Shown: positions 12,549-27,369 of the stretch, one piece after another
How the letters are laid out: every line of letters begins with the position of its first letter
How positions within the stretch are numbered: the first letter of the stretch is position 1
NCBI GenBank assembly: GCA_026396255.1
Contig: JAPLXD010000013.1
Coordinates: forward strand, 1-43,703
Reading direction: 5' to 3'
Length of the DNA stretch: 43,703 bases
Origin: Candidatus Moraniibacteriota bacterium
GTDB lineage: Bacteria > Patescibacteriota > Minisyncoccia > Moranbacterales > UBA11712
The notes under the pieces: model-generated
Database searches by the model: none
What the model saw: the letters and a program-made list of their open reading frames with translations, nothing else
Told to the model about the DNA's origin: nothing
Made by a program: the position numbers and the translations under genes

Positions 12549-12550
12549 TA

Positions 12551-13606: not shown

Positions 13607-13691
13607 AAATATTGAATACAAACAAAAAGAGGCGGATTGAAATCCTCAATGAGTATAGTATACCATTTTCCGATTGGCAATACAAAAAAAT

Positions 13692-14855
13692 TCAGCTCGC
13701 AAGACTGGAGTAAATCTTCAATATTTTTTCCGCGTTTTTTTGCCAGGTGTAAGTTTTGGCGACTTCAGTCCCCTTTTTGATCAAATTCTTTCGCAGATTT
13801 TCGTCTGACAAAATTTCTTGGATTTTTCGGGCGAATTCTTCGGATTTTTTCGGATCGCAAAATAGCGCTGCGTCCTTGCCGATCTCGCGAAGAACCGGAA
13901 TGTCAGAGCAGACAACCGGCGTCTCGGCGGCCATGGCTTCGATGATTGGAATTCCAAAGCCTTCGTATAGTGATGGAAAAACAAAGCAGCTTGCCAGTTT
14001 GAACAAAGCCGGCTTGTCTTCCTCGTCGATCCAGCCGGGGAAAATAATTTTGTCTTCGAGATGAAATTTTTCAATTGCCTCGTCGATTTTCGGATCAAAA
14101 TTACGCGCCTTGCGGTTTCCGGCGAGAATAAGAGGAGTATCCAAATCTCTCATTGCCTCAATCAAAACAGGAATATTTTTTCTCGGCTGAAGCGTGCCTA
14201 TATATAGTATGTATTTTGTATCTGGTATTTTGTATCTGGTATTGATTTTTTTGATTTCATCAGTAGAATATTTTTTGTTAAATCGGCTAAAGTCTACTCC
14301 ATTGTACGCGCAAGCAACTTTTTCCGGAGGAATTTTGTAAAATTCAACGATATTTTTTTTCTCACTTTCTGAGACAGCGATAATCTTGTTTGCCCTGCGA
14401 ATACTTCTCGGAATCAAATTTCTCAAAAAAAACAAATCGGATTTCCGGATATATTCAGGAAAATAATTGAAAGAAATATCGTGGATGGTCAAAACCAGTT
14501 TGATTTCCGCCTCTCCGGCGGATCGCCGATGAGGCGATTTCGGCAGCCAAAACGGCGCGATGTATTGCGTATGAAAAACATCAACGGTATTTTTTTTGAG
14601 ATAATGCGGGAGTGCCCACAAATTCCACCAAAAACGGTTGGGGCAGTTGATAAAAATAACTTTGAAATTGTCGGCTAGTTTCAATTTATCAATTTCGGTT
14701 TTTAGCTCTTGATTCTTTTGGGGGTCTCGGTCGGTGAAGAGAAAATATTCATTTTTGCTATCCATTTCCGCCAAGTTTTTCACCAAATTGAAAAACACCG
14801 CTTCATCGCCGGTTCTTTTTTTGCCGATCATTCGGATATCAATGCCGATTTTCAT
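13692..14855 (-). CDS. GT4 glycosyltransferase
   Basis: MKIGIDIR start, TIHD, GTLQPRKN, PSLYEGFGIPIIEAMA; carries two repeat-derived inserts. Confidence 0.92.
   Translation of the reverse strand: MKIGIDIRMIGKKRTGDEAVFFNLVKNLAEMDSKNEYFLFTDRDPQKNQELKTEIDKLKLADNFKVIFINCPNRFWWNLWALPHYLKKNTVDVFHTQYIAPFWLPKSPHRRSAGEAEIKLVLTIHDISFNYFPEYIRKSDLFFLRNLIPRSIRRANKIIAVSESEKKNIVEFYKIPPEKVACAYNGVDFSRFNKKYSTDEIKKINTRYKIPDTKYILYIGTLQPRKNIPVLIEAMRDLDTPLILAGNRKARNFDPKIDEAIEKFHLEDKIIFPGWIDEEDKPALFKLASCFVFPSLYEGFGIPIIEAMAAETPVVCSDIPVLREIGKDAALFCDPKKSEEFARKIQEILSDENLRKNLIKKGTEVAKTYTWQKNAEKILKIYSSLAS
14211..14243. repeat. Heptamer array inside the GT4 coding sequence
   Basis: GTATTTT GTATCTG GTATTTT GTATCTG GTATT; same unit as 734-814. 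Confidence 0.75.
14506..14537. repeat. 32-nt double-hairpin element inside the GT4 coding sequence
   Basis: TCCGCC-N5-GGCGGA TCGCC-N5-GGCGA; same architecture as 36605-36636. Confidence 0.8.
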
Positions 14856-14875
14856 AGTTTTTTCGCTCGCTTTCT

Positions 14876-16489
14876 TTATTGCTTTATATAAATAAAACTT
14901 ACAAGTATTCCTATTCCCAGCCAAAGCAGTCCCATCAGGAGTCCGGCGTTGAACAAATTTGGAATTATCAGCGCGAATATTCCAAGTGTCAGAAATATGT
15001 TGAGCGATTTTTCGAGATCGTCTCCCGCGACCGGGCAGCCGAAAAATTTGTTCAGTGGGCAGATCGGAGAAATTCTTCGGAAAGCATAAACAAATAAATA
15101 ACCGAAAATAACCACAAACGCAATCAATCCCAAAATCCCGCAACTCGCCCAGATTTGGAGAAAGATATTGCTTTCATTGAGTCCCGCTCCTCGCTCATCG
15201 GAGCCGAGCGACTGGGTGATTGTTCCAAATCCCACGCCGAGAAGCGGATGTTCGCGAATGATCTCAAAACTTTTTTTGTAGATTTGGCTGCGAGTCATCA
15301 CATTCGGATCTTTGCGGAAAATTTCAGTGACAACTTTTCCTTGCGATTTATACAACTCAATTTCTTCGAGGTTGATGAACTTGCAACTGTAGCTTGCCAA
15401 TTCGTCGGTGCTGGCGATTGTTGGCGGAATGTTCGAACTGCTGTCGCAGGCAACGGTGATCTTTTGCTCGTTGGTTGCGGCGGATCGAGCGCGGTCAAAT
15501 ATGTCGAATTTGGAAAGTTTTCCAAAATGAATCGCGGCGAGAGAGATCAAGGAAAGTAAAATAATTATCGTCAAATTATAGGCAAATTTTCGGAGCGTAA
15601 AGCTTGTTCTGATTTCGCTTTTTCTGTACAAACTGAAAACGAGCCAGAAGAAAATGACTGCGGCGGCGCCAATCCAGGCGGAACGGGAAAGCGTGAGGGT
15701 TAGCAAGGTTAAATTGAGAAATATCATTATATATAAGGCATATTTGGCTATTGTGGTCTTCGCTTTGGATAATGTCATCAAAAAGAGAATAGCCAGCGCG
15801 AAACACAAAAAAATTCCCAGCCAATCGGCTTCGGTGAAAGTGGAATTGGGACGGCCGAACATCACTTCAAGTGAACGCGCGCCGAATTTGTCGGCGAAGA
15901 CCTGCCAAAATCCATAGAATATCACGACCAAATTTGAGCCAATGAAAAAATACGCGGCCTCAATGAAATCTTTTCTATCACGCAAAAAATTGCGAGCGAT
16001 ATAATAAAGGACAGCAAAAGAAAATAAAATTAAATCAATTTTCAGGCTGATATTTTTATTTGGGGAATTTACGAGAGACAAAAAACTCAACGGCACGAGT
16101 AAAAAAATGAGCCAATCAAGCCAAGTTGGTTTCAGAAACTGGAAATTCAATCTTTTGACAAACCAAAGGATGATAACGGCGATGGCGAGAATCGCACCCG
16201 CAAACTGATACGGCCGCAATTGGATCGGCAAAAATCCCGAAGCGAAAATCACATTCTCGAGCGGCACGAGCGAAACGAAAAGCAAAAATATCCATCGCGG
16301 GCGGTACAACGCGACCAGAAGTGTGAGAATTGAAATGAAAACAAAATCCCCTGTTCCGAGAGGCAGCTTGCTCTTGTTTTGCAAAACAATCAGCGCCAAT
16401 CCCAGCAGCACGCTGAAAATCCAGAGGATGGAAACCTCCTTCTTGAGGATATTTTTTATATTTTCGAAAAAGTTTTCAAAACTATCCAT
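14876..16489 (-). CDS. O-antigen ligase/polymerase (Wzy_C/WaaL-like) membrane protein
   Basis: Many TM helices, RPNSTF.E, TLSRSAWIG, R.QIY, HPLLGVGFG, SNIFLQIW. Confidence 0.85.
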   Translation of the reverse strand: MDSFENFFENIKNILKKEVSILWIFSVLLGLALIVLQNKSKLPLGTGDFVFISILTLLVALYRPRWIFLLFVSLVPLENVIFASGFLPIQLRPYQFAGAILAIAVIILWFVKRLNFQFLKPTWLDWLIFLLVPLSFLSLVNSPNKNISLKIDLILFSFAVLYYIARNFLRDRKDFIEAAYFFIGSNLVVIFYGFWQVFADKFGARSLEVMFGRPNSTFTEADWLGIFLCFALAILFLMTLSKAKTTIAKYALYIMIFLNLTLLTLTLSRSAWIGAAAVIFFWLVFSLYRKSEIRTSFTLRKFAYNLTIIILLSLISLAAIHFGKLSKFDIFDRARSAATNEQKITVACDSSSNIPPTIASTDELASYSCKFINLEEIELYKSQGKVVTEIFRKDPNVMTRSQIYKKSFEIIREHPLLGVGFGTITQSLGSDERGAGLNESNIFLQIWASCGILGLIAFVVIFGYLFVYAFRRISPICPLNKFFGCPVAGDDLEKSLNIFLTLGIFALIIPNLFNAGLLMGLLWLGIGILVSFIYIKQ

Positions 16490-17000
16490 GGTTTCTGAAA
16501 ATTTCAATTGTCCTTTTTATTTCCTCATCAATGCCTTTTATGCAGTTATAATTTGCAAGCTCTTTCTCATTCACCCAGGCGAAATCTGAGAAATCATGAG
16601 GATTGGGCGTGACATCTCCGCTTTTGTACTTCGCCGCGAATTTGACGAGGATTACCGGGATTCCGTCGGGGCGGACGAAAGCGACGCTGTTGATATAGCA
16701 TAACTTATTTTCAATCTCGATTCCCGCTTCCTCCCGGGTTTCCCTCGCCACCAAATCTTCGACGGCGTTTTCAAAATCGATCACGTCGCCGTTCATCCGG
16801 GTCGGATGCGCGAGATCCATATCCTTCCATTCCAATTTCCCGCCGGGCATGGCGTATTTCCCTGGGTGGACTTTTTCCCGTTCGCTGCGCTTCAAGATCA
16901 AACATCTTCCGTCAGATTCGCGATAGACAACCACATTGGCAACAAAATAAAATAGTTTGTCTTTTTTCGCGTTGTCGATTGAAATTTCAGGCGCCGGCAT
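16482..17000 (-). CDS. NUDIX hydrolase
   Basis: LILKRS, PGGKLE...RETREEAGI Nudix box with an insertion. Confidence 0.85.
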   Translation of the reverse strand: MPAPEISIDNAKKDKLFYFVANVVVYRESDGRCLILKRSEREKVHPGKYAMPGGKLEWKDMDLAHPTRMNGDVIDFENAVEDLVARETREEAGIEIENKLCYINSVAFVRPDGIPVILVKFAAKYKSGDVTPNPHDFSDFAWVNEKELANYNCIKGIDEEIKRTIEIFRNHG

Positions 17001-17001
17001 A

Positions 17002-18129
17002 TTATTTTTCAAAAAATTTTTCCACAAAACTTTTCCAACTGAATTTTTTGGCGCGTCCAACTCCCTTTTCGGCGAGTCGCAGACGCAATTTGTTGTTTCG
17101 CAAAACTTTTCCCATCACTCGGGCCATTTCGTCTGTGTCGTGCGGATTGAAATACAAGACCGCGTCGCCGCCGACCTCAGGCAGTGAGGAATTCTTGGAG
17201 ATGGCGGTTGGCGCGCCGCTGGCCATGGCTTCGAGTGGCATCAGGCCGAATCCTTCATATAGTGACGGCAAGACAAATAGTTCGCAATTTCGATACAGAG
17301 CCGGCAAATCTTTTTGCTTCACAAATCCGATCAGGCTCACTTTGTCAGCTATCCCCAATTTTTCTGCTTCTTTCTTTGCATCTGTGAACAATTTGCTGAA
17401 TTGAGATTTGGCTTCTCCTCCAAGCACCAACTTGATGTCGGAAACTTCATAGTTTTCCAAAAGCCTTGCAAATGCTTCCAAAAGTCCTGGAACATTTTTT
17501 CGAAAATCAAATCCGCCTATATAGAAAACATAGCGGCCGAAAATGCCATATTTTTCAATAATCTGGTTGTCTTTTTCGCTGGATGATTTTTCAAAAAATT
17601 CTTCCCCAATGCTTGGATAAGCCGTTTTTATTTTGCCGAGCGGGATATCCAGGAACTTGTGGATATCTTTTTTTGACCACTCGGAAACAGTGATGATTTC
17701 ATCCGCGTGTTGGATGGCTTTTTGCGTCAGGAAAAAATAGAATTTTTTTCGTGAATTGTCGAGATAGTCCGGGAATATTTTCGGAATCAGGTCATGGACA
17801 AGCATCTTATGCCGGATATTTTTCGGCAAGAAGGTCGGACATTGGTAGAGAGAAATGAGCATATCGCACTGATCCCGTTTGACATATTTGGGCAAAAGGA
17901 ATTTTTCCCACCAGATTTTTCTGATCAGGTCATCGCGTTTCCAGACTGGCAGAAATATCCGCTTGTGGAAATTTTTTGGCAGTTTGAAATCAATAGCATC
18001 CTCCAAATAAAAAAAGTATTCATTTTGGTCAGAATGATTTTTGACTATTTCAGAGATGAATCCCCTTGTCACTTGGCCGATCCCGGTGTCAGGTTTTCGC
18101 AAAAAAGAAGCATTTATCCCAATTCGCAT
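17002..18129 (-). CDS. GT4 glycosyltransferase
   Basis: MRIGINA, VHDLIP, GGFDFRKN, PSLYEGFGLMPLEAMA. Confidence 0.92.
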   Translation of the reverse strand: MRIGINASFLRKPDTGIGQVTRGFISEIVKNHSDQNEYFFYLEDAIDFKLPKNFHKRIFLPVWKRDDLIRKIWWEKFLLPKYVKRDQCDMLISLYQCPTFLPKNIRHKMLVHDLIPKIFPDYLDNSRKKFYFFLTQKAIQHADEIITVSEWSKKDIHKFLDIPLGKIKTAYPSIGEEFFEKSSSEKDNQIIEKYGIFGRYVFYIGGFDFRKNVPGLLEAFARLLENYEVSDIKLVLGGEAKSQFSKLFTDAKKEAEKLGIADKVSLIGFVKQKDLPALYRNCELFVLPSLYEGFGLMPLEAMASGAPTAISKNSSLPEVGGDAVLYFNPHDTDEMARVMGKVLRNNKLRLRLAEKGVGRAKKFSWKSFVEKFFEK

Positions 18130-18218
18130 ATTTGAATTCTACAACAAATGTTTGATTAAAACAAATTATTTTGCTAGTATATATCCAGTGTTTAAGCCTA
18201 AATAATATAGCCAATTTT

Positions 18219-19172
18219 ATGCGTCTAATCGTCAATATTCCAGCCTGGAACGAAGAAAAAACAATTGCCGGAGTGATCCACAAAATCCCCCGCCAAATTC
18301 ATGGAATCGATGAAGTGAAGATCCAGGTCATTGATGATGGCTCGTCCGACAAGACGGTCGAAGTCGCCAAAGCGGCCGGGGCGGATTTCGTCTTGAGTCA
18401 TCCGCGCAATATGGGTATCGGAGCGGCTTTCAAAACGGCCGTTGAATCGGCTCTTGAAAATGGGGCGGATATCATGGTGAATATTGATGCCGATGGCCAA
18501 TTTCCGCCAAGCGATATTCCCAAATTCACGGAACTAATAGTTAATCACAAGGCGGATATGGTGGTAGCCTCTCGCTTTGGGATCAAATCGGCCAAGAATA
18601 TGCCCTGGATAAAAAGTTTTCTCAATCGCTTCGCAGCCAATATTATTGGAAAATTTTTGCGCTATCCGATTGATGACCTCACTTGCGGCTTTCGGGCGCT
18701 TTCCCGCGAAACGATGCTGAGGCTCAATATGGCTTATCGCTTCACCTATACGCAGGAAACTATCATTGATGCTATTTCAAAAAACCTGGTTGTGAAATGG
18801 ATTCCGGTGGAGGTCCATTATTTTGACGGTCGCGAATCAAAAGTGGTGAAAAGCGTCGGAAAATTTGTCTATCAATCGTTTTTGATCATCATTCGCACTG
18901 TCCGCGACGCGCGCCCGATGGTGTTTTTCGGGATTCCGGGGGTCACACTCATCACGACGGCGGCAGCGATCGGAATCGCGTTTCTGGGATACTACTTTTC
19001 CCATTTCAAAGTTACTCCTTTCCGAACTTGGCTTTCACTGGCCGGAATCCTGTTTCTTGTTGGTCTCCAACTTCTCGTGTTCGCGCTCATCGCCGATATG
19101 ATCCGCAACAATCGGAAACTCACCGAGGAGCAGATGTATTTTTTGAAAAAGGAGAAATACAATAAAAAATGA
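18219..19172 (+). CDS. GT2 DPM1-like polyprenol-phosphate glycosyltransferase with two C-terminal TM helices
   Basis: IPAWNEE, DDGSSD, IDADGQF, DLTCGFRA. Confidence 0.9.
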   Translation: MRLIVNIPAWNEEKTIAGVIHKIPRQIHGIDEVKIQVIDDGSSDKTVEVAKAAGADFVLSHPRNMGIGAAFKTAVESALENGADIMVNIDADGQFPPSDIPKFTELIVNHKADMVVASRFGIKSAKNMPWIKSFLNRFAANIIGKFLRYPIDDLTCGFRALSRETMLRLNMAYRFTYTQETIIDAISKNLVVKWIPVEVHYFDGRESKVVKSVGKFVYQSFLIIIRTVRDARPMVFFGIPGVTLITTAAAIGIAFLGYYFSHFKVTPFRTWLSLAGILFLVGLQLLVFALIADMIRNNRKLTEEQMYFLKKEKYNKK

Positions 19173-20284
19173 AAATTCTTTTTATTTCCCGTGCATACCC
19201 ACCTATTTTTGGCGGGATCGAAAATCAGAATTATGGGATTGGCCAATCTTTGTCGGAAATTACGTCTATAAGAATTATTGCCAATGAATCAGGTAAAAAA
19301 AATCTGCCATTTTTTTTGCCTTGGGTGACGCTGAAATCTCTTTTTATTGTTCCGAGATACGATACAATTCTTCTCGGTGATGGAGTTCTTGCTCCACTCG
19401 GCGCATTTTGGAAAATATTTTATCCGAAAAAGAAATATATTTCTATTGTACATGGACTCGATATCACATTTGCACATAAAAAATCAATTTTGGGGAAAAT
19501 TTACAGAGCAGTCAATATTCCAGCGTTGAAGAAAATGGATAAATTGATAATGGTCGGAAACGAAACAATTACTGAAGCAGAAAAGATTGGGATTTTGAAA
19601 GAAAAGTGTGTTTTTATTCCGAATGGATATTATCCAGATGAGATATGCAAAAAATGCACCAGAAGCGATGCAGAAAAATTACTGGAAATGGACTTGGGCG
19701 GCAAGAAATTTATTTTCCGAGGAGGAAGATTTACAAAACACAAGGGTGTGGAGTGGTTCATCCGTAATGTGATGCTAAATTTGCCGGAAAATTATATTTT
19801 TGTTGCCGCTGGAGGAGGTATTGCGAGCAAAACTGCGGGTGATGAGAATTATTATCCAAAATGTAAGCAAGCGGTTGAGGATTTGAAAATGGAAAATAGG
19901 GTGAAACTATTGCTCAATCTCAAGAGATCAGACATAAAAACTCTTTTTAATGTTTGCGACCTGTATATTTCACCGAACATAAAAGTTCCCCGATCAATGG
20001 AAGGTTTTGGTATTACAGCAATTGAGGCCGCTGCTTGTTCAAGGGTTGTTCTAGTGTCAGATATTGAAGGTCTTAAGGACGCAATCAAGGACGGCGATAA
20101 TGGCTTTTTGGTCGAGAGCGGAGATGTGGAGGCGTGGACGAAAAAGATCAACGAACTGTTGGCTGACGACGAATTCCGAAAAAAATTTGGAGAAAAAGCA
20201 AGAGAGTACACAATTGAAAATTATAGTTGGGAGAAAATTGCCAAGAGATATCTGGAGGAAATGGAGAAAGTTGCGAAAAAATAG
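19169..20284 (+). CDS. GT4 glycosyltransferase
   Basis: YPPIFGGIE, VHGLD, GRF.KHKG, EGFGITAIEAAA. Confidence 0.9.
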   Translation: MKILFISRAYPPIFGGIENQNYGIGQSLSEITSIRIIANESGKKNLPFFLPWVTLKSLFIVPRYDTILLGDGVLAPLGAFWKIFYPKKKYISIVHGLDITFAHKKSILGKIYRAVNIPALKKMDKLIMVGNETITEAEKIGILKEKCVFIPNGYYPDEICKKCTRSDAEKLLEMDLGGKKFIFRGGRFTKHKGVEWFIRNVMLNLPENYIFVAAGGGIASKTAGDENYYPKCKQAVEDLKMENRVKLLLNLKRSDIKTLFNVCDLYISPNIKVPRSMEGFGITAIEAAACSRVVLVSDIEGLKDAIKDGDNGFLVESGDVEAWTKKINELLADDEFRKKFGEKAREYTIENYSWEKIAKRYLEEMEKVAKK

Positions 20285-20292
20285 AAATTTAT

Positions 20293-22164
20293 ATGGTTAT
20301 TGGTCTTCTAAAACTCATCCTCACCATCCCCTTTGTCCTCATCTTGCCGGGCGTGCTTTTTCAGTGGGCGATTTTCGGTTGGAAATCCGCCTTTGGCGGA
20401 AGAAAAATATCTTTTTTCGAAAAAGCGGTTTTGGCTGTGCCTTTCAGCTTGATCATAGTCGACCTGATTGTGCTGCTTCTCAACAAATTGAATATTCTCC
20501 TCAAAGGGCCGGTGCTGGTCGGAGCGATTCTGATATTTTGTCTCGTATGTTTTGCCGCATATCAGCTCAGATTTGGGAAGAAAAAAAGCAAAAAAGAAGA
20601 GGAGAGCGAACCTGACAAAACATTTGATTTTTCCACCTGGCAGGCAGTTTTTATCCTGCTGGCGCTTGTCCTCGCGATTTTCATCCGGACGGCCTATCTC
20701 TCTGACACGATCATCCCTTCAGCAACCGATTTGGGCCACCATATGTATTGGGTCCAAACGATCATCAACACGGGGCATCTCCCCAACTACGGTATGCCGG
20801 ATTTCATCATCGGAGAGCATATGGTTTTTGCCGCGGTAAATTTGATCAGCGGGATTGGAGTGATGACTGCCATGCCCGTTCTTCTCCTGCTTTTTTTCAA
20901 CATCGTCGGTATTTTCACAATCGCGATCCTGCTTGGTCGGGTCTTTGAGAGCAAAAAAATTGTGGCTATCTCATTTTTCGTGGCCGGGTCTTTGTATGCA
21001 ATCAATCCTCCGCAAGGCCGGTATGTGAGCGGCGGGGTGGTGGGAAATGTGATGGGAGACATGCTTATTCCGGTTGCAATGTATTTTTTCTATCGCGCCC
21101 TCAAGGAAAAGGATCAGATCTTTGTCGGATTGTTCATTTTTTCTTTCGCTGGTCTCTTGTATACGCATCATTTGAGCGCGTTCGTCCTGATTTTCTCAAT
21201 TGCGGCGGTTGTGATTTTGTATTTGATCCTGAATTTCAAAAACATTTTCAAAATCATCGGCGAGTGGCTAAGATTATTCTTAAAACCCTTTCCCCTTGCG
21301 CTTATATTTATTTTTGCACTGTATTTTCTGGTAATCTTCACTCCTTCGTACTTCAATCCTGCCGCTGTCGGTCAAGCAACGGGCGAGCCAACCAAGAACA
21401 CGCGGATCGGATTCAGTATCGTCCAAATTGATTCAGGCGTTGGCAGCGCGTTGCTCGTTCTGGGAGCTGCAGGGTTTCTTCTGTCACTGTTTGCTCTCAA
21501 GCGAAAAGAACTGAAGTATGCGTTCGCGTTCGGTTGGTTTTTGGTTTTATTCGTGATGACTTGGAAGCCGGGATTGCTCTATGTCAATATTCCGAGCGAC
21601 CGGGTGAGCAATTATTTGTTCCTGCCTTTGGTGCTCCTCTCCTCTTATGCACTCGTCCGGTATTTTGAGGTTTTCACCTCGGACACTTCCCGTTTTTTTT
21701 CGACTGTTTTTCTGTTCACGCTTCTGTTTTTCGTCATTACGAATGGTCTTTCGGACAGTGCGGATGTTTTCAAAGCCAAAAATCAATTCCAGGGGATTAT
21801 GGAGACTTTTCACTCGGCCGCCTATTTGGCCGCAACCGTGGATACAAACAAGGATATTATTTTGAAAGATCACGTGAACATATATGGCGATTCCTGGTAC
21901 AAATTGTTTTTTATGAAAGACTACAAGTATCCCCTCTCCCGCGGGGTGCTCATGCGCTACGCGGATCCGACAAAACCGCGCGAAACCTGCACGCGGGATA
22001 TGATCTCGAACGCGGAAAGCGATGCGGGAAAAGCTTGTTTTGCCGACACGGGGGTCAACTATGTCGCCGTGAACGCCCAAATCGAAGGCAATAGTTTTGA
22101 GAAATATCCGGACTTTTCAAAAGTTTATGGCTCGGATGGAATTTCGATTTTTAGAAAAGACTAA
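20293..22164 (+). CDS. Polytopic membrane protein, probable GT-C-fold glycosyltransferase with DUF1616-like N-terminus
   Basis: More than 12 predicted hydrophobic segments, early loop SATDLGHH, THHLS, soluble C-terminal domain; family assignment is inference. Confidence 0.6.
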   Translation: MVIGLLKLILTIPFVLILPGVLFQWAIFGWKSAFGGRKISFFEKAVLAVPFSLIIVDLIVLLLNKLNILLKGPVLVGAILIFCLVCFAAYQLRFGKKKSKKEEESEPDKTFDFSTWQAVFILLALVLAIFIRTAYLSDTIIPSATDLGHHMYWVQTIINTGHLPNYGMPDFIIGEHMVFAAVNLISGIGVMTAMPVLLLLFFNIVGIFTIAILLGRVFESKKIVAISFFVAGSLYAINPPQGRYVSGGVVGNVMGDMLIPVAMYFFYRALKEKDQIFVGLFIFSFAGLLYTHHLSAFVLIFSIAAVVILYLILNFKNIFKIIGEWLRLFLKPFPLALIFIFALYFLVIFTPSYFNPAAVGQATGEPTKNTRIGFSIVQIDSGVGSALLVLGAAGFLLSLFALKRKELKYAFAFGWFLVLFVMTWKPGLLYVNIPSDRVSNYLFLPLVLLSSYALVRYFEVFTSDTSRFFSTVFLFTLLFFVITNGLSDSADVFKAKNQFQGIMETFHSAAYLAATVDTNKDIILKDHVNIYGDSWYKLFFMKDYKYPLSRGVLMRYADPTKPRETCTRDMISNAESDAGKACFADTGVNYVAVNAQIEGNSFEKYPDFSKVYGSDGISIFRKD

Positions 22165-22167
22165 ACT

Positions 22168-22533
22168 ATGTCATCCAAAATAATCATCATCGCCGTCGCC
22201 ATTCTTCTCATCATCAGCTTCTCGGTGCTTTTTGTGATTGAAACCAAAAATCACAACTATGATTACAACAAAACCTGGAGCGTGGCGTATTTTGAAAATC
22301 CGCGGGACAACTCACTCGATTTCGCAATCGAAAATCACGAGGGTGTGGCGGCGGAATATGGCTACAAGATTTTTGTGGGCGACGACAAAGTGATTGATGA
22401 GAAAGTTGAAATCAATGCCGGCGCCAAACAACAAATCTCGCCGGTGATCCCGAGCGAGCGCTTGAGCGGCAACAAAGTTTTGATCGAAGTAAACTATAAA
22501 AGTAAGGATTATAAGATATATAAGAGTTTATAA
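22168..22533 (+). CDS. Membrane-anchored beta-rich hypothetical protein (DUF1616 C-terminal-like)
   Basis: N-terminal TM helix, F.IENHEG...Y motif; tight operon spacing. Confidence 0.65.
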   Translation: MSSKIIIIAVAILLIISFSVLFVIETKNHNYDYNKTWSVAYFENPRDNSLDFAIENHEGVAAEYGYKIFVGDDKVIDEKVEINAGAKQQISPVIPSERLSGNKVLIEVNYKSKDYKIYKSL

Positions 22534-23784
22534 ATGAAACGCATTTTATTGCTTACCCGGCCGATTTGCCCGCCATGGGATGAGGGGTCGAAAAATTTCG
22601 CTTACACCCTCGCCAAATACGCGGGTGATGTTGAGGTCCATCTTTTGACATATCCGGGGTGTGGAGCCTCAGATACTGCCTGGATTTTCAATCTTCAAAA
22701 TGTCGTCTGCCACGACATTTATACCTCATCAAAATGGGATTGGTCGCAAAAGATCCGGGCCTATATTTTTTTGGCCAAAGAATTTTTTTTGAAAGGCGGA
22801 AGGAAATACGACATTTTGCATTCTTTTTTCACTCCGACAAGGCTGAACTCTTTCGCGCTGAAGCTGTGTTTGAGAAACACAAAAACAAAAACCATCCAAA
22901 CACTGGCGACATTGCGGGATGATTTGTACGGCGCGGAAAGATTGAAAAAAATCATTCACGCGGATTTCGTCATCACCTATTCTGACTATGCGAAGGAAAA
23001 ACTGGAGAAAATTGGATTTCGGAAGATAAAAAGAATTTATCCGGGAATCGATATAAAAAAATACTCTCCTACTCCGAAAGACAGGGCATACTTGAAAAGA
23101 TATGAAACGGGCGAAGATGATTTTGTGATCAATTATACCGGTGAATATGTGCGGCTTGGAGACATGGATGATATCGTCAATGCATTTATAGATTTAACTC
23201 GTTTTGCCATCCCGGGCTTGATCCGGGATCCAGAAAATAAATTTGGCGCAGAGAAACTGGATTCCCGCTGGAGTTTATCCCGCACCGGGATGCGGGGCGG
23301 GAATGACAAGAACAGGAAATTTAAATTACATTTAGCGGTGCGGGTGAAAAATGAAAAAGATGCGCAAAAAAAGCGAGAAATTATTGCGAAACTGAAAAAA
23401 GAAGGCGTTTTAGACAGAGTAGCCTTTATTGACGATTGCAGTTATGTGATGGAAGACGTATTCAATCTTTGCGATATCTCCATTTTTCCGGCGCGGACGA
23501 TGGCCGGGAAGTTTGATATTCCTCTGGCCGTCATTGAAGCGATGGCTTGCGGCAAGCCCGTGATCGCGTCCAATCTCGAAAGGCTCAAATATTTCCTAAA
23601 CAACGAAAACAGCATCTTGGTTCCGCCCGGAAACCGCGAAGCCCTCAAAGAAAATATTTTGTATTTGTATAATAATCCCGAGAAAAGAAACGATCTGGCG
23701 CGGCGTGGCATTGATTTTGTCCGCGCGAATTTCGATATAGCGAAAATAGTGAAAGAGTATGAAGAGGTGTATGCAAAATTATGA
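22534..23784 (+). CDS. GT4 glycosyltransferase with palindrome-derived insertion
   Basis: PPWDEG, IYPGID, KFDIPLAVIEAMACGKPVI. Confidence 0.88.
   Translation: MKRILLLTRPICPPWDEGSKNFAYTLAKYAGDVEVHLLTYPGCGASDTAWIFNLQNVVCHDIYTSSKWDWSQKIRAYIFLAKEFFLKGGRKYDILHSFFTPTRLNSFALKLCLRNTKTKTIQTLATLRDDLYGAERLKKIIHADFVITYSDYAKEKLEKIGFRKIKRIYPGIDIKKYSPTPKDRAYLKRYETGEDDFVINYTGEYVRLGDMDDIVNAFIDLTRFAIPGLIRDPENKFGAEKLDSRWSLSRTGMRGGNDKNRKFKLHLAVRVKNEKDAQKKREIIAKLKKEGVLDRVAFIDDCSYVMEDVFNLCDISIFPARTMAGKFDIPLAVIEAMACGKPVIASNLERLKYFLNNENSILVPPGNREALKENILYLYNNPEKRNDLARRGIDFVRANFDIAKIVKEYEEVYAKL
23204..23309. mobile_element. RPE/REP-like palindromic element inserted in frame
   Basis: TTGCCATCCCGGGCTTGATCCGGGATCCA...CTGGATTCCCGC...GCGGGAATGACAA; encodes AIPGLIRDP...LDSR...GND. 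Confidence 0.75.
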
Positions 23785-25274
23785 ACATTGAATCCCTATC
23801 CGCCCACAAAAAGAAATTCCAGACGGACAAAATGAAAGTTCCGGCGATTTTTTTCATGAGCGAAGAATTGCTTCCGCAGGATGAAACATATAGAAAATTG
23901 GAAGACGTGGCGTCCAATCCGGACATTCTTTTTCACAATTTGGCGGCTATGCCCGACGTCTGCTCAAAACCCGGCCGGAAAAACGCGTCCGGAACGGTGG
24001 TTGCTTCCGAGGGTTTTATTCTTCCCCAGGTCAACGATTCCGACCCCAACTGCGGTATGCGCCTTTTGAAGACGAATCTCACAGAAGAGAATTTTTCGCT
24101 TGTTGAAATTGATAAACTTTTTCAAAAATTGGTGCAAACGGTTCCCACCAAAAAATTTGTCGGTACAAAGGTTCCTTTCAACGTCGTCGTCGACATATGC
24201 CGGAAAGGAACACGAGCCATTGTTGATCATCTGGGGATCAAAACCAAAAACGAATTGGAAAATACCCAAAACGGCGGAAATTTTTTTGAGCATGAAGTGA
24301 CGCGGCAGGATATTTTCGATGTTGTTCCAAAGTTTTATCTGTTTTTTGCCAAATACCGTCTGGGCATCATTGGCGCGGCCGGAAACCATTTTCTGGATCT
24401 AATGAAAGTGACTGATCTTGTCGACCCCCAAGTGGCTGAAATTTTCGGATTGAAGAAAGGACAATATCTCTTTATGATCCATACCGGCTCTGGTATCTTG
24501 GGACAATACACGATGTACACCCACACCGCCAAAAAACGGGAGCATTTGTCCCAATCGCTAATGGTGAGTTTGGGAAAATTGACATTTGGCTCAAGAAAAA
24601 AAGATGTTTATCGGGAAATGCAAAAGAAAATAAGAAACCATATGCAGGGCGACGAGTCCCTTCTCAAATATGATGCCAATGGTCCGGACGGCGAAATGTA
24701 TATGAATGCCCGGGCTGCCGCTTCCAATTTTGGAACCGCCAATAGGGCGGTGATCACTCACAATATTTCCGAGACGATCAAAAAGTTGTTTGACCGTGAT
24801 CCGGAGATGGATTTGATTTATGATATGCCCCATATTTCCATATCCAAAGAAAATCATTTTGGGCGCGATGTTTTTGTCCATCGCAGCAATGCTTCGCGCG
24901 CCTTTGGACCGGCAAAAATGACTGATCATCCGGTTTACAAAAAAACCGGAGAACCGGTATTTATCCCCTCTTCCATGTCGACGGATGCGTATATTGGCGT
25001 GGGAACGGACAAAAATGAGGACAGTTTCTTTTCCGCTCCGCACGGCACCGGAAAGGGCAAGAACGAAAAAGAAAAATCCATCACCAGCAAAAATGAATTA
25101 TTCGCCAAGATGGAAAATAAGGGCGTGCGGCTTTATAACGCCAAGTCATCGATAGTTGTCAACCAAGATTCTGCCCGCTACAAGGACATTGACAAGGTCA
25201 TGGCTGGTGTCGAAACCAACGGCATCGCCCATGTGGTGGCCAAAATGAAACCAGTGGCGGTTTTAATGTACTAG
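23781..25274 (+). CDS. rtcB: Divergent RtcB-family ligase/guanylyltransferase
   Basis: AMPD, DPNCGMR, GNHF, IHTGS, YDMPH, VHR, IPSSM, SAPHGTG and YKD in canonical RtcB order. Confidence 0.85.
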   Translation: MNIESLSAHKKKFQTDKMKVPAIFFMSEELLPQDETYRKLEDVASNPDILFHNLAAMPDVCSKPGRKNASGTVVASEGFILPQVNDSDPNCGMRLLKTNLTEENFSLVEIDKLFQKLVQTVPTKKFVGTKVPFNVVVDICRKGTRAIVDHLGIKTKNELENTQNGGNFFEHEVTRQDIFDVVPKFYLFFAKYRLGIIGAAGNHFLDLMKVTDLVDPQVAEIFGLKKGQYLFMIHTGSGILGQYTMYTHTAKKREHLSQSLMVSLGKLTFGSRKKDVYREMQKKIRNHMQGDESLLKYDANGPDGEMYMNARAAASNFGTANRAVITHNISETIKKLFDRDPEMDLIYDMPHISISKENHFGRDVFVHRSNASRAFGPAKMTDHPVYKKTGEPVFIPSSMSTDAYIGVGTDKNEDSFFSAPHGTGKGKNEKEKSITSKNELFAKMENKGVRLYNAKSSIVVNQDSARYKDIDKVMAGVETNGIAHVVAKMKPVAVLMY

Positions 25275-25283
25275 TTTTGTAAA

Positions 25284-25880
25284 GTGAAACTAATCACCCT
25301 CTCCGGACTCGACGGTTCGGGAAAATCGACACAAATTGAACTTCTAAAGAATTATCTCAAGTCTCGAGATAAGACTTTTTTCTATTTCCACGCGGTGGAT
25401 TTTTCCATTGGAAATAAGATATTAACGCGAGGAAAAAATCCCCCTCAATCCCCCTTTTTTAAAGGGGGAGGTTTCAGTGGCGTCATAAAAGCCAGCTGGT
25501 TTCAGATTCAATTGCGGAAAATTGCCTTAGGCATTGATATCTGTAGATTTGGAAAATTACTTAAGAAAACAAAAGTCGACTATATAATTTCTGATAGATA
25601 TTTTTATGATAGTGTAGTGAATATAGATTTTCTGTTGGGAAACAATACCAAATTATTTTTTGAAAAATATATTCCCAAACCGGACTTTGCTTTCTATATC
25701 AATGTAAATCCGGAAATAATCATGAGGCGTGAGCGTAAACCGGATCAGGGAATGGAATACTTGGTGGCAAAAGAAAGGATATTTAAAGAAAAAATAAAAG
25801 ATTGGAATATGATTGTGCTTGATGGCGAAAAAAATAAAGACGAGATATTCAATGAACTAAAATCAAAAATCAATGTCTAA
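25284..25880 (+). CDS. Thymidylate-kinase-like P-loop kinase
   Basis: LITLSGLDGSGKSTQ, SDRYFYD, PKPD; lacks the usual TREPG segment, so substrate is uncertain. Confidence 0.8.
   Translation: MKLITLSGLDGSGKSTQIELLKNYLKSRDKTFFYFHAVDFSIGNKILTRGKNPPQSPFFKGGGFSGVIKASWFQIQLRKIALGIDICRFGKLLKKTKVDYIISDRYFYDSVVNIDFLLGNNTKLFFEKYIPKPDFAFYINVNPEIIMRRERKPDQGMEYLVAKERIFKEKIKDWNMIVLDGEKNKDEIFNELKSKINV
25437..25470. repeat. CCCCC..GGGGG hairpin element inserted in frame in the kinase gene
   Basis: AATCCCCCTCAATCCCCCTTTTTTAAAGGGGGAG, encoding NPPQSPFFKGG. Confidence 0.7.
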
Positions 25881-27369
25881 ATTTCTTGTAAAATCATTTT
25901 TCTGGGTCACTCTTTCGGAGGTGATTTATAATCTCTCGGCTTATGTCATTCATTCCGGCATGGGTCGGATTTTGGGACCGGCGGAATACGGACGCTACGG
26001 TATTGTTGTCACGCTCACAACGATGATCGTGGTTTTGATTGGCCAAGGCGTGCCGACAGCAATGGCGAAATATCTCGGAGAAATATATGACACGAAACCG
26101 GGACTGGTTCCGATCATCAAAAAGCAAACCGTGAAAATTCAGTTTGTTTTGATCGGTGCCGTGACAGTCATTTTCTTCTTCCTCGCTCCGGTGATTTCTC
26201 TCATCCTCCACGACAAGACGCTCACTCCTCTTTTCCAGATTTCAACGCTCGTGATCCCGGCCTTTGCTCTCGCTTCTTTCTATTTCTACTATTACACCGG
26301 TCTTCACGAATTCAAAACCCAGGCTTGGCTCAAAACTTCGCGGGCTTTTTTCCGGATACTTTTCATCCTGGGGCTGGCTTTGCTCTTGAGATCATATGGT
26401 TACGCGCTTCAGGGCGCGCTGGTTGGGTATATCTTGGCTCCCCTCTCCATTTTCTTCGAAGCCAATCTGCTGGACAAATTCAAAAAAGTGAAAGCCGAAG
26501 GGTTTTTCGACTGGCGAAAACTTTTGCACTATGCCTGGCCGATGACGCTTTTTCTCATCGCCTATGAATTTTTGATCACGATCGATCTCTATCTCGTGAA
26601 AGGAATTTTGAGGGACGACACTCTGACGGGGCTATACAACGGCGCCATCACTGTCGGTCGCATCCCGTATTTTTTGTTCTATGCTCTAACTATCATCATC
26701 CTCCCCGCCGTTTCAAAATCAACCTCAAGCAACAACCATGCTGAGACCAAGAAATTGATTGGGCAATCTTTGCGGCTGATGGTGATGTTTCTTCTGCCGA
26801 TTGCAATTTTGATGGCTGTCTATTCCCAGCCGATTTTGCAAATATTCTATGGCAAGAAATTCCTGGGTGCGGCCGGCCCGATGTCAATTTTGATGAGCGG
26901 GGTGACATTTCTCACGATCTTCTATGTCATGGCCTTTGCCTTGAACGGCGCGGGGAAAGTGAAAGCTCCGATGTATATTTCATTCGCTGGACTCGCAACA
27001 AACATCGTCTTGAGTTATTTTTTCATTCACCAATACGGCCTTTCCGGCGCAGCCGTGGCTACTTCAATCACTTCTTTTGTCGCGATGGTGCTGGTTCTTG
27101 CCTATTCTTATAATTTCTTCGGCTATTTGTTTAAGCTTTCCAGTTTTTTGAAGATCATTATTGCTTCGGCCATCATGTATTTTTCTTCGACATTTTTTCC
27201 CGGCGGGCATTATGCTTTCATCTTCTGGTCAGCGATATTATTCGCGATCTATATTGCGATCCTTTTCGCTTTCCGCGAATTCGGTTCGTCTGACCTTGAA
27301 CTCGTGAAACAGCTATTGCAAAAGAAAAAAATAAAAACCGCCGCCGACGTGGAAGAAGAGGCTTTATAG
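25873..27369 (+). CDS. Wzx/MOP-family oligosaccharide flippase
   Basis: RILGPAEYGRY, ID.YLVK, GLYN.A, LPAVS, YGLSGAAVAT; ~14 hydrophobic segments. Confidence 0.9.
   Translation: MSKFLVKSFFWVTLSEVIYNLSAYVIHSGMGRILGPAEYGRYGIVVTLTTMIVVLIGQGVPTAMAKYLGEIYDTKPGLVPIIKKQTVKIQFVLIGAVTVIFFFLAPVISLILHDKTLTPLFQISTLVIPAFALASFYFYYYTGLHEFKTQAWLKTSRAFFRILFILGLALLLRSYGYALQGALVGYILAPLSIFFEANLLDKFKKVKAEGFFDWRKLLHYAWPMTLFLIAYEFLITIDLYLVKGILRDDTLTGLYNGAITVGRIPYFLFYALTIIILPAVSKSTSSNNHAETKKLIGQSLRLMVMFLLPIAILMAVYSQPILQIFYGKKFLGAAGPMSILMSGVTFLTIFYVMAFALNGAGKVKAPMYISFAGLATNIVLSYFFIHQYGLSGAAVATSITSFVAMVLVLAYSYNFFGYLFKLSSFLKIIIASAIMYFSSTFFPGGHYAFIFWSAILFAIYIAILFAFREFGSSDLELVKQLLQKKKIKTAADVEEEAL

What the first reader, a model, noticed from the sequence alone, without database searches (positions are those of the whole stretch)
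22534..27369. Divergent RtcB ligase and Tmk-like kinase embedded in a glycan operon: candidate GTP-dependent phosphodiester chemistry on sugars
Seen: GT4-rtcB-kinase-flippase are overlapped or 9 bp apart in one operon with GT2, GT4 and a GT-C-like gene; no rtcA, rtcR, archease or Ro in the window. RtcB keeps the metal-ligand motifs (DxxCG, NH, HTGS, YDxxH) and the guanylylated His (SAPHG), but other conserved positions differ: HN to HI, HRKGA to HRSNA, HGAGR to HGTGK, EEAP to NQDS, terminal KG to MY. The kinase has a P-loop and DRY but no TREPG. Known: RtcB activates a terminal phosphate as a GMP anhydride and joins it to a hydroxyl. Inference: the kinase phosphorylates a sugar or polyol and the RtcB paralog guanylylates it or forms a phosphodiester in a surface glycan; joining of nucleic acid to glycan is a more speculative option.
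Basis: partly seen in the sequence, partly recalled or inferred. Interest (0 to 1): 0.85.

Follow-up and report, generated by a model that had tools for sequence, protein, structure and literature searches.

The report
RtcB-like enzyme inside glycan operon
A divergent relative of the RNA ligase RtcB, with a thymidylate-kinase-like gene and a glycosyltransferase, forms a conserved unit inside a cell-surface sugar-polymer operon of Moranbacteria, which suggests (but does not prove) that RtcB chemistry is used there on something other than RNA.

Summary
GT4c (22534-23784), a divergent RtcB ("RtcB-X", 23781-25274), a Tmk-like kinase ("TmkL", 25284-25880) and a Wzx-type flippase (25873-27369) overlap or lie 9 bp apart. 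They end an eight-gene + strand string that starts at 18171.

The linkage is not unique to this genome. In 80 Moranbacteria loci, GT4c lies upstream in 66 of 66 assessable, TmkL downstream in 69 of 75, and the flippase in 59 of 65.

Two genomes lack exactly GT4c+RtcB-X+TmkL and keep the rest of the operon.

RtcB-X keeps the metal ligands and the nucleotidylated His. Clade-wide it has lost the 5'-OH-strand clamps, the guanine contacts and the gamma-phosphate contact.

As an internal control, canonical RtcBs of the same class sit beside archease (8 of 11 loci). RtcB-X sits beside GT4c or, in one sister family, CofD. A third RtcB type sits beside a CDP-alcohol phosphotransferase (15 of 17 genomes).

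Best reading (about 0.5): RtcB-X activates a non-RNA phosphomonoester as an NMP anhydride for envelope glycan synthesis. GTP use and the kinase's substrate are open; TmkL is the only Tmk-family gene in this genus. Nothing is shown biochemically.

The parts
18171..19172 (+). GT2, polyprenyl-phosphate sugar synthase-like (AglJ/PpgS-like); first gene of the conserved string
   Evidence: PF00535 81 bits. Best NCBIfam matches are AglJ and PpgS, both below cut-off. Syntenic in relatives.
19169..20284 (+). GT4b glycosyltransferase
   Evidence: PF00534 114 bits. Syntenic.
20227..22164 (+). DUF6541 polytopic membrane protein, GT-C-like (start codon uncertain)
   Evidence: PF20176 41.5 bits. Found upstream of RtcB-X in 47 of 53 loci with at least 5.5 kb of flank.
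22168..22533 (+). orf121: small protein with one N-terminal hydrophobic helix, no family match
   Evidence: Translation. No Pfam or NCBIfam hit. Conserved between DUF6541 and GT4c in many relatives.
22534..23784 (+). GT4c glycosyltransferase; overlaps the RtcB-X start by 4 bp; part of the three-gene module
   Evidence: PF00534 59.6 bits and PF13439. Upstream of RtcB-X on the same strand in 66 of 66 assessable loci. Missing together with RtcB-X and TmkL in G039 and G059.
23781..25274 (+). RtcB-X: divergent RtcB-family nucleotidyl-His enzyme, subtype A
   Evidence: PF01139 255.5 bits. PDB phmmer to P. horikoshii RtcB, E 8e-52. Active-site table. Tree.
25284..25880 (+). TmkL: thymidylate-kinase-fold P-loop kinase with a remodelled acceptor site and a disordered insert (residues 55-66)
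   Evidence: PF02223 47.2 bits; TIGR00041 47.9 bits, below its cut-off of 83.25. AF2 model pLDDT 90.3. Foldseek top hits are Tmk structures. Conservation.
25873..27369 (+). Wzx-type (MOP family) polysaccharide flippase; last gene of the string
   Evidence: PF01943 77.6, PF13440 70, PF03023 54.9 bits. A separate MurJ match of 327 bits lies on contig C59.
27409..27423 (+). terminator-like hairpin plus T-run just after the flippase stop (weak)
   Evidence: The count of such sites in the region is not above shuffles (14 against 11.9).
11721..18129 (-). Divergently oriented wall-glycopolymer genes: GT2, LytR-CpsA-Psr, GT4, Wzy_C, NUDIX, GT4a (context)
   Evidence: Pfam.

Best explanation
RtcB-X is a lineage-specific RtcB-family enzyme. 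It is found in Moranbacteria and two sister families of the same class. It appears to have been recruited from RNA ligation to the cytoplasmic steps of a cell-surface glycopolymer pathway. With GT4c and TmkL it forms a dispensable three-gene module inside the operon GT2-GT4b-DUF6541-orf121-GT4c-RtcB-X-TmkL-Wzx.

Proposed mechanism (inferred, not shown):
1. His421 of RtcB-X, the counterpart of P. horikoshii His404, is nucleotidylated by an NTP whose base may not be guanine.
2. The NMP is passed to a phosphomonoester of a non-RNA substrate: a sugar phosphate, an alcohol phosphate or a lipid-linked glycan phosphate. This gives X-pp-N.
3. A hydroxyl then attacks X-pp-N. This happens either on RtcB-X itself, giving a phosphodiester, or on the adjacent nucleotide-donor-using transferase GT4c.
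4. The finished lipid-linked unit is flipped by the Wzx-like protein.

TmkL would either supply the phosphorylated intermediate or recycle the released NMP.
For: (1) Conserved linkage.
- In 29 loci of the order with 1.5-kb flanks, GT4c was found in 28, TmkL in 25 and the flippase in 24.
- In 13 longer loci covering 11 families, GT4c-RtcB-X was found in 13 of 13, while the outer flanks differ.
- In 80 named loci, GT4c was found in 66 of 66, TmkL in 69 of 75, the flippase in 59 of 65 and DUF6541 in 47 of 53 assessable.

(2) Block loss. G039 reads GT2-GT4b-DUF6541-orf121-Flip. G059 reads GT2-GT4b-DUF6541-[448 bp]-Flip. These are two different families. Both genomes are 99-100% complete and have no RtcB hit.

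(3) Active site, 44 of 44 RtcB-X unless stated otherwise.
- Kept: C98, H203, H234, H329, H404.
- Changed: R238 to G; R190 to a hydrophobic residue; H242 to Q (43); E206 to D (43); K480 to M (41); N330 to I/V/L/G; D95 to A in 22.
- All 11 canonical RtcBs of the class keep every one of these residues.
- Roles of the residues: R238, R190 and H242 contact the 5'-OH strand (PMC8051266, passages read). K480 and E206 read guanine, and N330 contacts the gamma-phosphate (PMC9745838, passages read).

(4) Internal control. Canonical RtcBs of the class lie next to archease in 8 of 11 loci. The own genome has no archease and no RtcA.

(5) Other non-canonical contexts.
- In family f55, RtcB-X lies directly downstream of a CofD-family gene in 3 of 3 loci.
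- A third RtcB type lies in a string with a CDP-alcohol phosphotransferase in 15 of 17 genomes, flanked by GT4, GT2 and PMT_2 genes.
- No CdsA-family match over cut-off was found in 0 of 34 genomes.

(6) The only tRNA intron verified in the genome is a group I intron, so no protein ligase is needed for it.

(7) RtcB-X alleles are swapped within genera. Identity is 54-56% against 87%, while neighbouring genes are 66-89% identical. An AU test rejects monophyly of the genus, p = 8e-110.
Against: - There is no biochemical or expression evidence. Everything is comparative.
- All catalytic residues needed for RNA ligation are kept in the window's protein, so RNA ligation is not excluded.
- RtcB-X is not less basic than canonical RtcB: median pI 9.05 against 8.75.
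- RtcB-X gains an invariant Arg at the Q194 position and a conserved K/R-rich loop. It could therefore still hold a polyanion.
- The Moranbacteria loci are kin and largely one evolutionary event. Independent events are few: three contexts and two deletions.
- TmkL evidence that points to nucleotide metabolism instead:
  - It is the only Tmk-family hit in 10 genomes, and 9 of these keep ThyA.
  - One locus has a dCMP-deaminase-like gene between RtcB-X and TmkL.
  - The f55 TmkL-like gene lies between NifU and RNase III/RuvC.
- In f70, TmkL-Flip lies away from RtcB-X.
- 6 of 75 loci lack TmkL downstream.
- The GT4 genes next to the third RtcB type are not clear orthologues of GT4c.
- The own genome has three ordinary NTP_transferase genes, so it does not lack NDP-sugar synthesis.
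Confidence: 0.5

Rival explanations
1. RtcB-X is still an RNA (or DNA) 3'-P/5'-OH ligase. It would be a lineage-specific repair or processing enzyme whose gene merely rides in a very stable operon. The substitutions would reflect a different RNA substrate or a missing archease partner.
For: - All metal ligands, N202 and the His nucleophile are kept in the window's protein.
- It is the only RtcB in 50 of the 58 genomes of the order that have one.
- It is highly conserved, 73-77% identical across families. That is more than any neighbouring gene.
- It has a basic pI and a new invariant Arg at the Q194 position.
- A lack of R238 is not proof of a non-RNA substrate.
Against: - It is missing together with GT4c and TmkL in two genomes that have no other RtcB, so it is dispensable and tied to the module.
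- Canonical RtcBs in the same class, and in 8 genomes of the same order, keep the archease context and all RNA and guanine contacts.
- Three different non-canonical contexts are all envelope genes.
- No RtcA or archease is present.
- The verified tRNA intron is self-splicing.
Confidence: 0.3
2. TmkL is simply this lineage's dTMP kinase or a broad NMP kinase. It would sit in the operon by chance, or to feed or recycle nucleotides for sugar activation. On this reading the kinase says nothing about RtcB-X chemistry. This reading can hold together with either reading of RtcB-X.
For: - It is the only PF02223 match in G000-G004, G007, G021, G036, G042 and G050. Nine of these ten keep ThyA.
- It has the Tmk fold.
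- The P-loop, DR(Y), R78 and the lid Arg are kept.
- A dCMP-deaminase-like gene lies beside it in one locus.
- FolD and SHMT lie downstream in the window.
- In f55 it has a housekeeping context.
Against: - Most relatives have a second, better-scoring Tmk (65-163 bits). By my reading, this one lies beside ThyA or ThyX in at least 13 genomes. TmkL lies beside RtcB-X or the flippase instead.
- TmkL lacks the 'EP..G' stretch, the stacking Phe and the 'S..AY' stretch of the canonical copies.
- TIGR00041 scores 47.9 bits, below its cut-off of 83.25.
- G039 and G059 keep ThyA with no Tmk-family hit at all. A missing hit therefore does not show which enzyme makes dTDP.
- TmkL is missing in a block with GT4c and RtcB-X.
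Confidence: 0.3
3. RtcB-X nucleotidylates or ligates another kind of target: a protein side chain, a nucleotide, or a nucleic acid joined to glycan. Alternatively it is a non-catalytic scaffold of the glycan machinery.
For: Only the general facts that the acceptor site is remodelled and that a conserved insertion of about 24 residues sits next to it.
Against: - Complete conservation of the catalytic residues argues against a scaffold.
- No partner suggests a protein or nucleic-acid target.
- The neighbours are transferases that use nucleotide-diphospho donors.
Confidence: 0.07

Closest known systems
Canonical RtcB 3'-phosphate/5'-OH RNA ligase (P. horikoshii, E. coli, human RTCB), usually with archease
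   Same: Same Pfam family and fold-level similarity: 255 bits, and E 8e-52 to PDB 1uc2/4dwq. Same Cys/His/Asp metal site, N202 and the nucleotidylated His.
   Different: - The 5'-OH-strand clamps R238, R190 and H242 are lost.
- The guanine readers E206 and K480 and the gamma-phosphate contact N330 are lost.
- D95 is lost in half of the clade.
- There is a conserved insertion of about 24 residues after the HTGS motif, and a 2-residue insertion with a K/R-rich loop after the PD motif.
- There is no archease; the context is a glycan operon.
Kinase, then nucleotidylyltransferase, then phosphotransferase routes that build phosphodiesters in envelopes and cofactors: LicA/LicC/LicD for phosphocholine, TagD/TagF for glycerol phosphate, CofC/CofD via the GMP-activated lactyl diphosphate, CdsA plus CDP-alcohol phosphotransferases (all recalled from general knowledge)
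   Same: The chemistry is the same as RtcB steps 2-3. A phosphomonoester is activated as an NMP anhydride and then attacked by a hydroxyl with release of NMP. The gene logic also fits: a kinase-like gene, an activating enzyme and a transferase side by side. Non-canonical RtcBs sit next to CofD-family and CDP-alcohol phosphotransferase genes.
   Different: No sequence relation exists between RtcB and the known nucleotidylyltransferases. RtcB uses a covalent His-NMP intermediate. The substrates here are unknown. This is a 'works like' comparison, not family membership.
Thymidylate kinase (Tmk)
   Same: Fold (TM 0.64-0.73 to Tmk structures), P-loop, DR(Y) and lid Arg.
   Different: The acceptor-site motifs are replaced by TmkL-specific invariant residues H36, D85, D109 and N113. 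There is an extra disordered insert. It lies beside RtcB-X or Wzx rather than ThyA/ThyX. It scores below the TIGR00041 cut-off.
Wzx/Wzy-dependent wall-glycopolymer clusters with GtrB-like GT2 plus GT-C decoration
   Same: GT2 (polyprenyl-P sugar synthase-like), a GT-C-like membrane protein, several GT4s, a Wzx-like flippase, Wzy_C and LCP genes all lie within 16 kb.
   Different: To my knowledge and in my searches, no described cluster of this kind contains an RtcB-family gene.

Membership tests
RtcB family (PF01139) | Profile match over the curated cut-off and similarity to solved RtcB structures | tested here: met
   255.5 bits against a cut-off of 27. E 8e-52 to P. horikoshii RtcB over two stretches.
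RtcB family (PF01139) | Binuclear metal site (Cys98, His234, His329; Asp95, His203) and the nucleotidylated His404 | tested here: met
   All are present in the window's protein. In the clade, D95 is Ala in 22 of 44.
RtcB RNA ligase (function) | Guanine-specific contacts (Glu206, Lys480) and the GTP gamma-phosphate contact (Asn330) | tested here: not met
   They are Asp, Met and Ile in the window's protein. Clade-wide: 43, 41 and 44 of 44 changed. Roles from PMC9745838.
RtcB RNA ligase (function) | 5'-OH strand contacts Arg238, Arg190, His242 | tested here: not met
   They are Gly, Phe and Gln. Roles from PMC8051266. A new Arg sits at the Gln194 position.
RtcB RNA ligase (function) | RNA-repair or splicing gene context (archease, RtcA) | tested here: not met
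   Neither is found in the genome. Canonical copies in the class have archease in 8 of 11 loci.
RtcB RNA ligase (function) | 3'-P/5'-OH RNA sealing activity | not testable with these tools
   Needs an enzyme assay.
Thymidylate kinase (PF02223 / TIGR00041) | Profile match over the curated cut-offs | tested here: inconclusive
   Pfam 47.2 bits against 27, met but in two stretches. NCBIfam equivalog 47.9 bits against 83.25, not met.
Thymidylate kinase (PF02223 / TIGR00041) | Tmk fold with P-loop, DR(Y/H/F) and lid Arg | tested here: met
Thymidylate kinase (PF02223 / TIGR00041) | dTMP-site motifs seen in the canonical copies of the same order ('EP..G', stacking Phe, 'S..AY') | tested here: not met
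   Alignment of 43 TmkL with 6 canonical Tmk.
Thymidylate kinase (PF02223 / TIGR00041) | dTMP kinase activity | not testable with these tools
   Indirect only: it is the sole Tmk-family gene in genus g1, where ThyA is present.
Wzx / MOP-family flippase | Polysacc_synt / MurJ / MatE profile matches; distinct from the genome's MurJ | tested here: met
   MurJ proper lies on C59 at 327 bits.
Kinase-nucleotidylyltransferase-phosphotransferase pathways (Lic, Tag, CofC/CofD, CdsA) | Homology of the activating enzyme to known nucleotidylyltransferases | tested here: not met
   RtcB-X matches only RtcB models. The resemblance is of chemistry and gene order only.

The most novel reading that the evidence does not exclude
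A whole branch of the RtcB family in Paceibacteria-class CPR bacteria no longer acts on RNA. The branch comprises RtcB-X of Moranbacteria and its sister families, and the third type that comes as an active/His-less pair. These enzymes would use the His-NMP/two-metal chemistry to nucleotidylate phosphomonoesters of envelope precursors: sugar or alcohol phosphates, lipid-linked glycans, possibly phosphatidic acid. They would then either form the phosphodiester themselves or hand the X-pp-N donor to the adjacent transferase (GT4, CofD-like, CDP-alcohol phosphotransferase). In genomes with no recognisable CdsA they would stand in for enzymes of the CdsA, LicC, TagD or CofC type.
Probability: 0.4. 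Interest if true: 0.9.

Novelty: new variant of a known kind. Interest (0 to 1): 0.8.

Why it matters
RtcB is known only as a nucleic-acid end-joining enzyme. If this clade activates sugar, alcohol or lipid phosphates, that would be a new biochemical role for the family. It would also be a new route to phosphodiester-containing surface polymers or lipids.

It could further explain how genome-reduced CPR bacteria build envelopes without some standard activating enzymes. No CdsA-family gene was found in the 34 genomes searched.

The case is directly testable. There is a natural internal control: the archease-linked canonical paralogue in the same order. There are also natural module-less relatives for comparison.

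Tried and rejected
- **tRNA-splicing ligase idea.** ARAGORN with intron search gave two intron-bearing tRNAs in the genome. The tRNA-Phe intron is a group I intron: Rfam RF00028, 78 bits. The 'tRNA-Thr intron' got no Rfam support. This was rejected as a reason for RtcB-X.
- **RtcB-X fills in for missing NDP-sugar synthesis.** Three NTP_transferase genes are present, so this was rejected as a necessity.
- **The operon flippase is the housekeeping MurJ.** A 327-bit MurJ lies elsewhere. Rejected.
- **CofD partner in the own genome.** None was found.
- **Bulk charge as a sign of lost RNA binding.** RtcB-X is not less basic. This counts against my reading and is reported as such.
- **Orthology of GT4c with the GT4 genes next to the third RtcB type.** Not seen.
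- **Complex prediction of RtcB-X with TmkL, with alignments A2 and A1.** The result was 'no answer', score 0.00. It is evidence neither way.
- **The look-up of sequencing runs (kind rna).** No RNA holder was listed.
- **Promoter and terminator scan.** Counts were not above shuffles.
- **L164.** It seemed to hold two GT4c-RtcB-X copies. The two RtcB matches have identical scores, so I take this for an assembly repeat.
- **AF2 and Foldseek of TmkL.** They gave only Tmk structures and no hint of a substrate.
- **Literature.** Searches (listings only read) found nothing on RtcB in glycan or lipid operons or in Patescibacteria. Subscription journals and supplementary files were not visible.
- **Not tried.**
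  - No structure model of RtcB-X was made. The tool returns no coordinates, so a view of the groove was not possible.
  - rRNA insertions were not examined.
  - RtcR and Ro were not searched.

Full report
**What is in the window.**
- The window is contig C15 of a 0.93-Mb genome in 61 contigs, 96% complete.
- Between 18171 and 27369 eight + strand ORFs follow each other with overlaps or gaps of at most 9 bp:
  - GT2 (AglJ/PpgS-like);
  - GT4b;
  - a DUF6541 membrane protein;
  - orf121, with one N-terminal hydrophobic helix;
  - GT4c;
  - an RtcB homologue;
  - a thymidylate-kinase-like protein;
  - a Polysacc_synt/MurJ/MatE flippase.
- Upstream, on the other strand, lie GT2, LytR-CpsA-Psr, GT4, Wzy_C, NUDIX and GT4a. 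Downstream lie FolD and SHMT.
- The genome has one RtcB, one Thymidylate_kin match, no archease and no RtcA. It has a separate 327-bit MurJ, so the operon's flippase is Wzx-like.

**The linkage is not unique to this genome.**
- The protein, here called RtcB-X, was found in 58 of 61 genomes of the same order. The three without a match are G024, G039 and G059.
- In 29 loci with 1.5-kb flanks, tblastn found GT4c upstream in 28, TmkL downstream in 25 and the flippase in 24. The one locus without GT4c is cut short.
- In 13 longer loci from 11 families of the order, GT4c-RtcB-X was found in 13 of 13 and the whole eight-gene string in most. The outer flanks (FolD, SHMT, PriA, CTP synthase, L9) vary.
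- A scan of genome contigs found 268 stretches that encode a relative. Most of the best 80 come from records titled Candidatus Moranbacteria/Moraniibacteriota, about 49 by my count. The rest carry broader or odd labels.
- In these 80 loci:
  - GT4c lies upstream on the same strand in 66 of 66 loci with enough flank (62 within 1.5 kb).
  - TmkL lies downstream in 69 of 75 (63 within 2.5 kb).
  - The flippase lies downstream in 59 of 65.
  - DUF6541 lies upstream in 47 of 53.
  - In four of the six loci without DUF6541, PriA precedes GT4c-RtcB-X-TmkL-Flip. That four-gene block therefore also travels on its own.
- These loci overlap with the genomes and are kin, so the counts describe one lineage, not many independent events.

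**Distribution.**
- In 201 genomes sampled from the class, matches of RtcB-X grade (42% identity or more) occur only in three places. These are the own order and two other families: f55 (G103, G190, G253) and f70 (G135, G163, G233).
- 46 further genomes have only weaker matches (38% identity or less), and 141 have none.
- In 401 genomes sampled from the phylum, nothing outside the order reached E 1e-60.
- TmkL at E 1e-14 or better has the same distribution: own order 7 of 7, f70 4 genomes, f55 3 genomes.

**A natural deletion.**
- G039 (family f4, 99% complete) reads GT2-GT4b-DUF6541-orf121-Flip.
- G059 (family f2, 100% complete) reads GT2-GT4b-DUF6541-[448 bp]-Flip.
- Exactly GT4c, RtcB-X and TmkL are missing, in two families whose other members carry them. 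Three of the four genomes of G059's genus have RtcB-X.
- Neither genome has another RtcB.
- The three genes thus behave as one dispensable unit.

**Active site.** I aligned 65 distinct homologues: 44 RtcB-X, 11 canonical RtcBs of the class, and 10 of a third type. P. horikoshii numbering was mapped by hand.

| Group | Residues |
|---|---|
| RtcB-X, kept | C98, H203, H234, H329, H404, R350, R355 (44 of 44); N202 (43 of 44) |
| RtcB-X, changed | R238 to G (44); R190 to hydrophobic (44); H242 to Q (43); Q194 to R (44); E206 to D (43); N330 to I/V/L/G (44); K351 to S/N (44); K480 to M (41); E445 to Q (44) |
| RtcB-X, D95 | Asp in 22 and Ala in 22 |
| Canonical (11 of 11) | All the P. horikoshii residues are kept |

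- The window's subtype keeps D95 but has Cys, Ser, Thr or Met in place of H67.
- Roles of the residues, from passages I read:
  - R238, R190, Q194 and H242 hold the 5'-OH strand, and N202 anchors the nucleophile (PMC8051266).
  - K480 and E206 read guanine, N330 binds the gamma-phosphate, and Mn2 (D95, C98, H203) binds the gamma-phosphate (PMC9745838).
- RtcB-X also has a conserved insertion of about 24 residues right after the HTGS motif, and a two-residue insertion with a K/R-rich loop after the PD motif. Both are shared with the third type.
- So the catalytic core is intact, while the acceptor site and the nucleotide pocket are remodelled under strong purifying selection. Identity is 73-77% across families, higher than for any neighbouring gene.

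**Internal control and two further contexts.**
- Canonical RtcBs. This set includes the second copies present in 8 genomes of the same order.
  - They lie next to archease in 8 of 11 loci.
  - One of the other three starts at a contig end.
  - Other neighbours are a PD-(D/E)XK nuclease, DUF763 and a radical-SAM/GNAT gene.
- Family f55.
  - RtcB-X lies directly downstream of a CofD-family gene in 3 of 3 loci.
- Family f70.
  - The string GT2-GT4b-DUF6541-orf121-GT4c-RtcB-X is kept.
  - Sometimes a hydrolase or racemase gene sits before RtcB-X.
  - TmkL-Flip lies elsewhere as a pair in 4 of 4 genomes.
- The third RtcB type.
  - It has S at D95, G at R238 and H at K351, and keeps E206, N330 and K480.
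  - It occurs in 17 of 401 genomes of the class. In 13 of these it comes with a paralogue, usually adjacent. In the four paralogues I aligned, Pro replaces H404.
  - In 14 of 18 loci a CDP-alcohol phosphotransferase gene follows on the same strand. In a 15th genome it does so on a second contig.
  - GT4 (or GT2) lies on the other side, and PMT_2, methyltransferase and polysaccharide-deacetylase genes lie nearby.
  - That phosphotransferase is the only PF01066 match in 15 of the 16 such genomes that have one.
  - No CdsA-family match over cut-off was found in any of the 34 genomes searched, while the control rang in 13 of 14 reference genomes.
- So within one class:
  - the canonical form has the RNA-type partner;
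  - both non-canonical forms have partners that use nucleotide-diphospho-X donors in envelope synthesis.

**Allele swapping.**
- Within genus g1, neighbouring genes are 66-89% identical to the window's. RtcB-X is 87% identical in G004 but 54-56% in G001, G002 and G003.
- In the tree, the order's RtcB-X falls into three starred clades, and family f1 appears in all three. A branch of 2.07 plus 2.07 substitutions per site separates RtcB-X from the canonical form.
- An AU test rejects monophyly of genus g1, p = 8e-110. I named the group after seeing the identities.
- No genome has two RtcB-X copies.
- Replacement of alleles in place is common for surface-polymer genes. I note it as compatible with the main reading, not as proof.

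**The kinase.**
- TmkL has a confident Tmk fold: pLDDT 90.3, and its top Foldseek hits are Tmk structures with TM 0.64-0.73.
- It keeps the P-loop, R78, D104-R105 and the lid Arg.
- It replaces the acceptor-site stretches of the canonical copies with its own invariant residues H36, D85, D109 and N113.
- Most relatives have a second, better-scoring Tmk. By my reading, it lies beside ThyA or ThyX in at least 13 genomes.
- However, ten genomes have only TmkL: G000-G004, G007, G021, G036, G042 and G050. Nine of them keep ThyA.
- G039 and G059 keep ThyA with no Tmk-family hit at all.
- One locus has a dCMP-deaminase-like gene between RtcB-X and TmkL.
- The f55 homologue sits between NifU and RNase III/RuvC.
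- TmkL may therefore be, or double as, an NMP kinase. Its role in the module is the weakest part of the story.

**Verdict.**
I put it at about 0.5.
- My refinements:
  - the nucleotide may not be GTP;
  - RtcB-X may only make the activated X-pp-N donor for the adjacent transferase;
  - the kinase may act on a phosphate acceptor or recycle NMP.
- An RNA-ligase role (about 0.3) is not excluded, for three reasons: the core is intact, the protein is basic, and a new Arg replaces Q194.

Noticed in passing
L055, L057, L058, L060, L061, L228-L238 (e.g. L058 3201-8771): A third RtcB type in other families of the class. It usually comes as a tandem pair in which the second copy has Pro in place of the nucleotidylated His. 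It sits in a conserved string: GT4 | RtcB - RtcB' - (TPR) - CDP-alcohol phosphotransferase. These genomes show no CdsA-family gene.
   Followed up: partly
G000 contig C61, locus L080 608-966 (outside the window): The genome's only tRNA-Phe(GAA) gene carries a 284-nt group I intron in the anticodon loop (Rfam RF00028, 78 bits). tRNA-Asn was not found by ARAGORN.
   Followed up: partly
L035 10643-11650, L036 240-1277, L039 3770-4777: In family f55 a CofD/YvcK-family gene lies directly upstream of RtcB-X in 3 of 3 loci. The window's own genome has no CofD-family gene.
   Followed up: partly
window 19169-20284 (GT4b) compared with L073 and L074: GT4b is only 57% identical between same-genus genomes, whereas its neighbours are 74-89% identical. 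It looks like a second gene in the operon with swapped or fast-evolving alleles. GT4c (65-74%) and TmkL (60-73%) are also below the local norm.
   Followed up: no
relatives, e.g. G022:C27 41445-44024, G028:C16 20275-22214, G053:C1 118554-120537: The better-scoring Tmk of the order lies next to ThyA or ThyX. It was not found in genus g1 and several other genomes that keep ThyA. In G012 its match contains two stop codons.
   Followed up: partly
window 11721-18129 (- strand): A divergent wall-glycopolymer gene set (GT2, LytR-CpsA-Psr, GT4, Wzy_C, NUDIX, GT4a) faces the operon. The Wzy_C ORF (14876-16507) and the GT4 ORF (13692-15143) overlap by 268 bp as called, so one start is probably wrong.
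   Followed up: no
L119, L121, L147, L150, L156, L160, L161, L164, L177, L184, L187, L195: Loci with the full Moranbacteria-type string come from public records titled as Bathyarchaeia, Bdellovibrionales, Pseudobdellovibrionaceae or Micavibrio. These are probably mislabelled bins.
   Followed up: no
L164 167-3783: Two RtcB-X matches with identical scores lie 2.1 kb apart. This is most likely an assembly repeat, not a true duplication.
   Followed up: partly
L042 7458-8852; L043 8401-8874: Genes inserted on the opposite strand between RtcB-X and TmkL: a Wzy_C-family gene in one family, and a dCMP/cytidine-deaminase-like gene in another.
   Followed up: no
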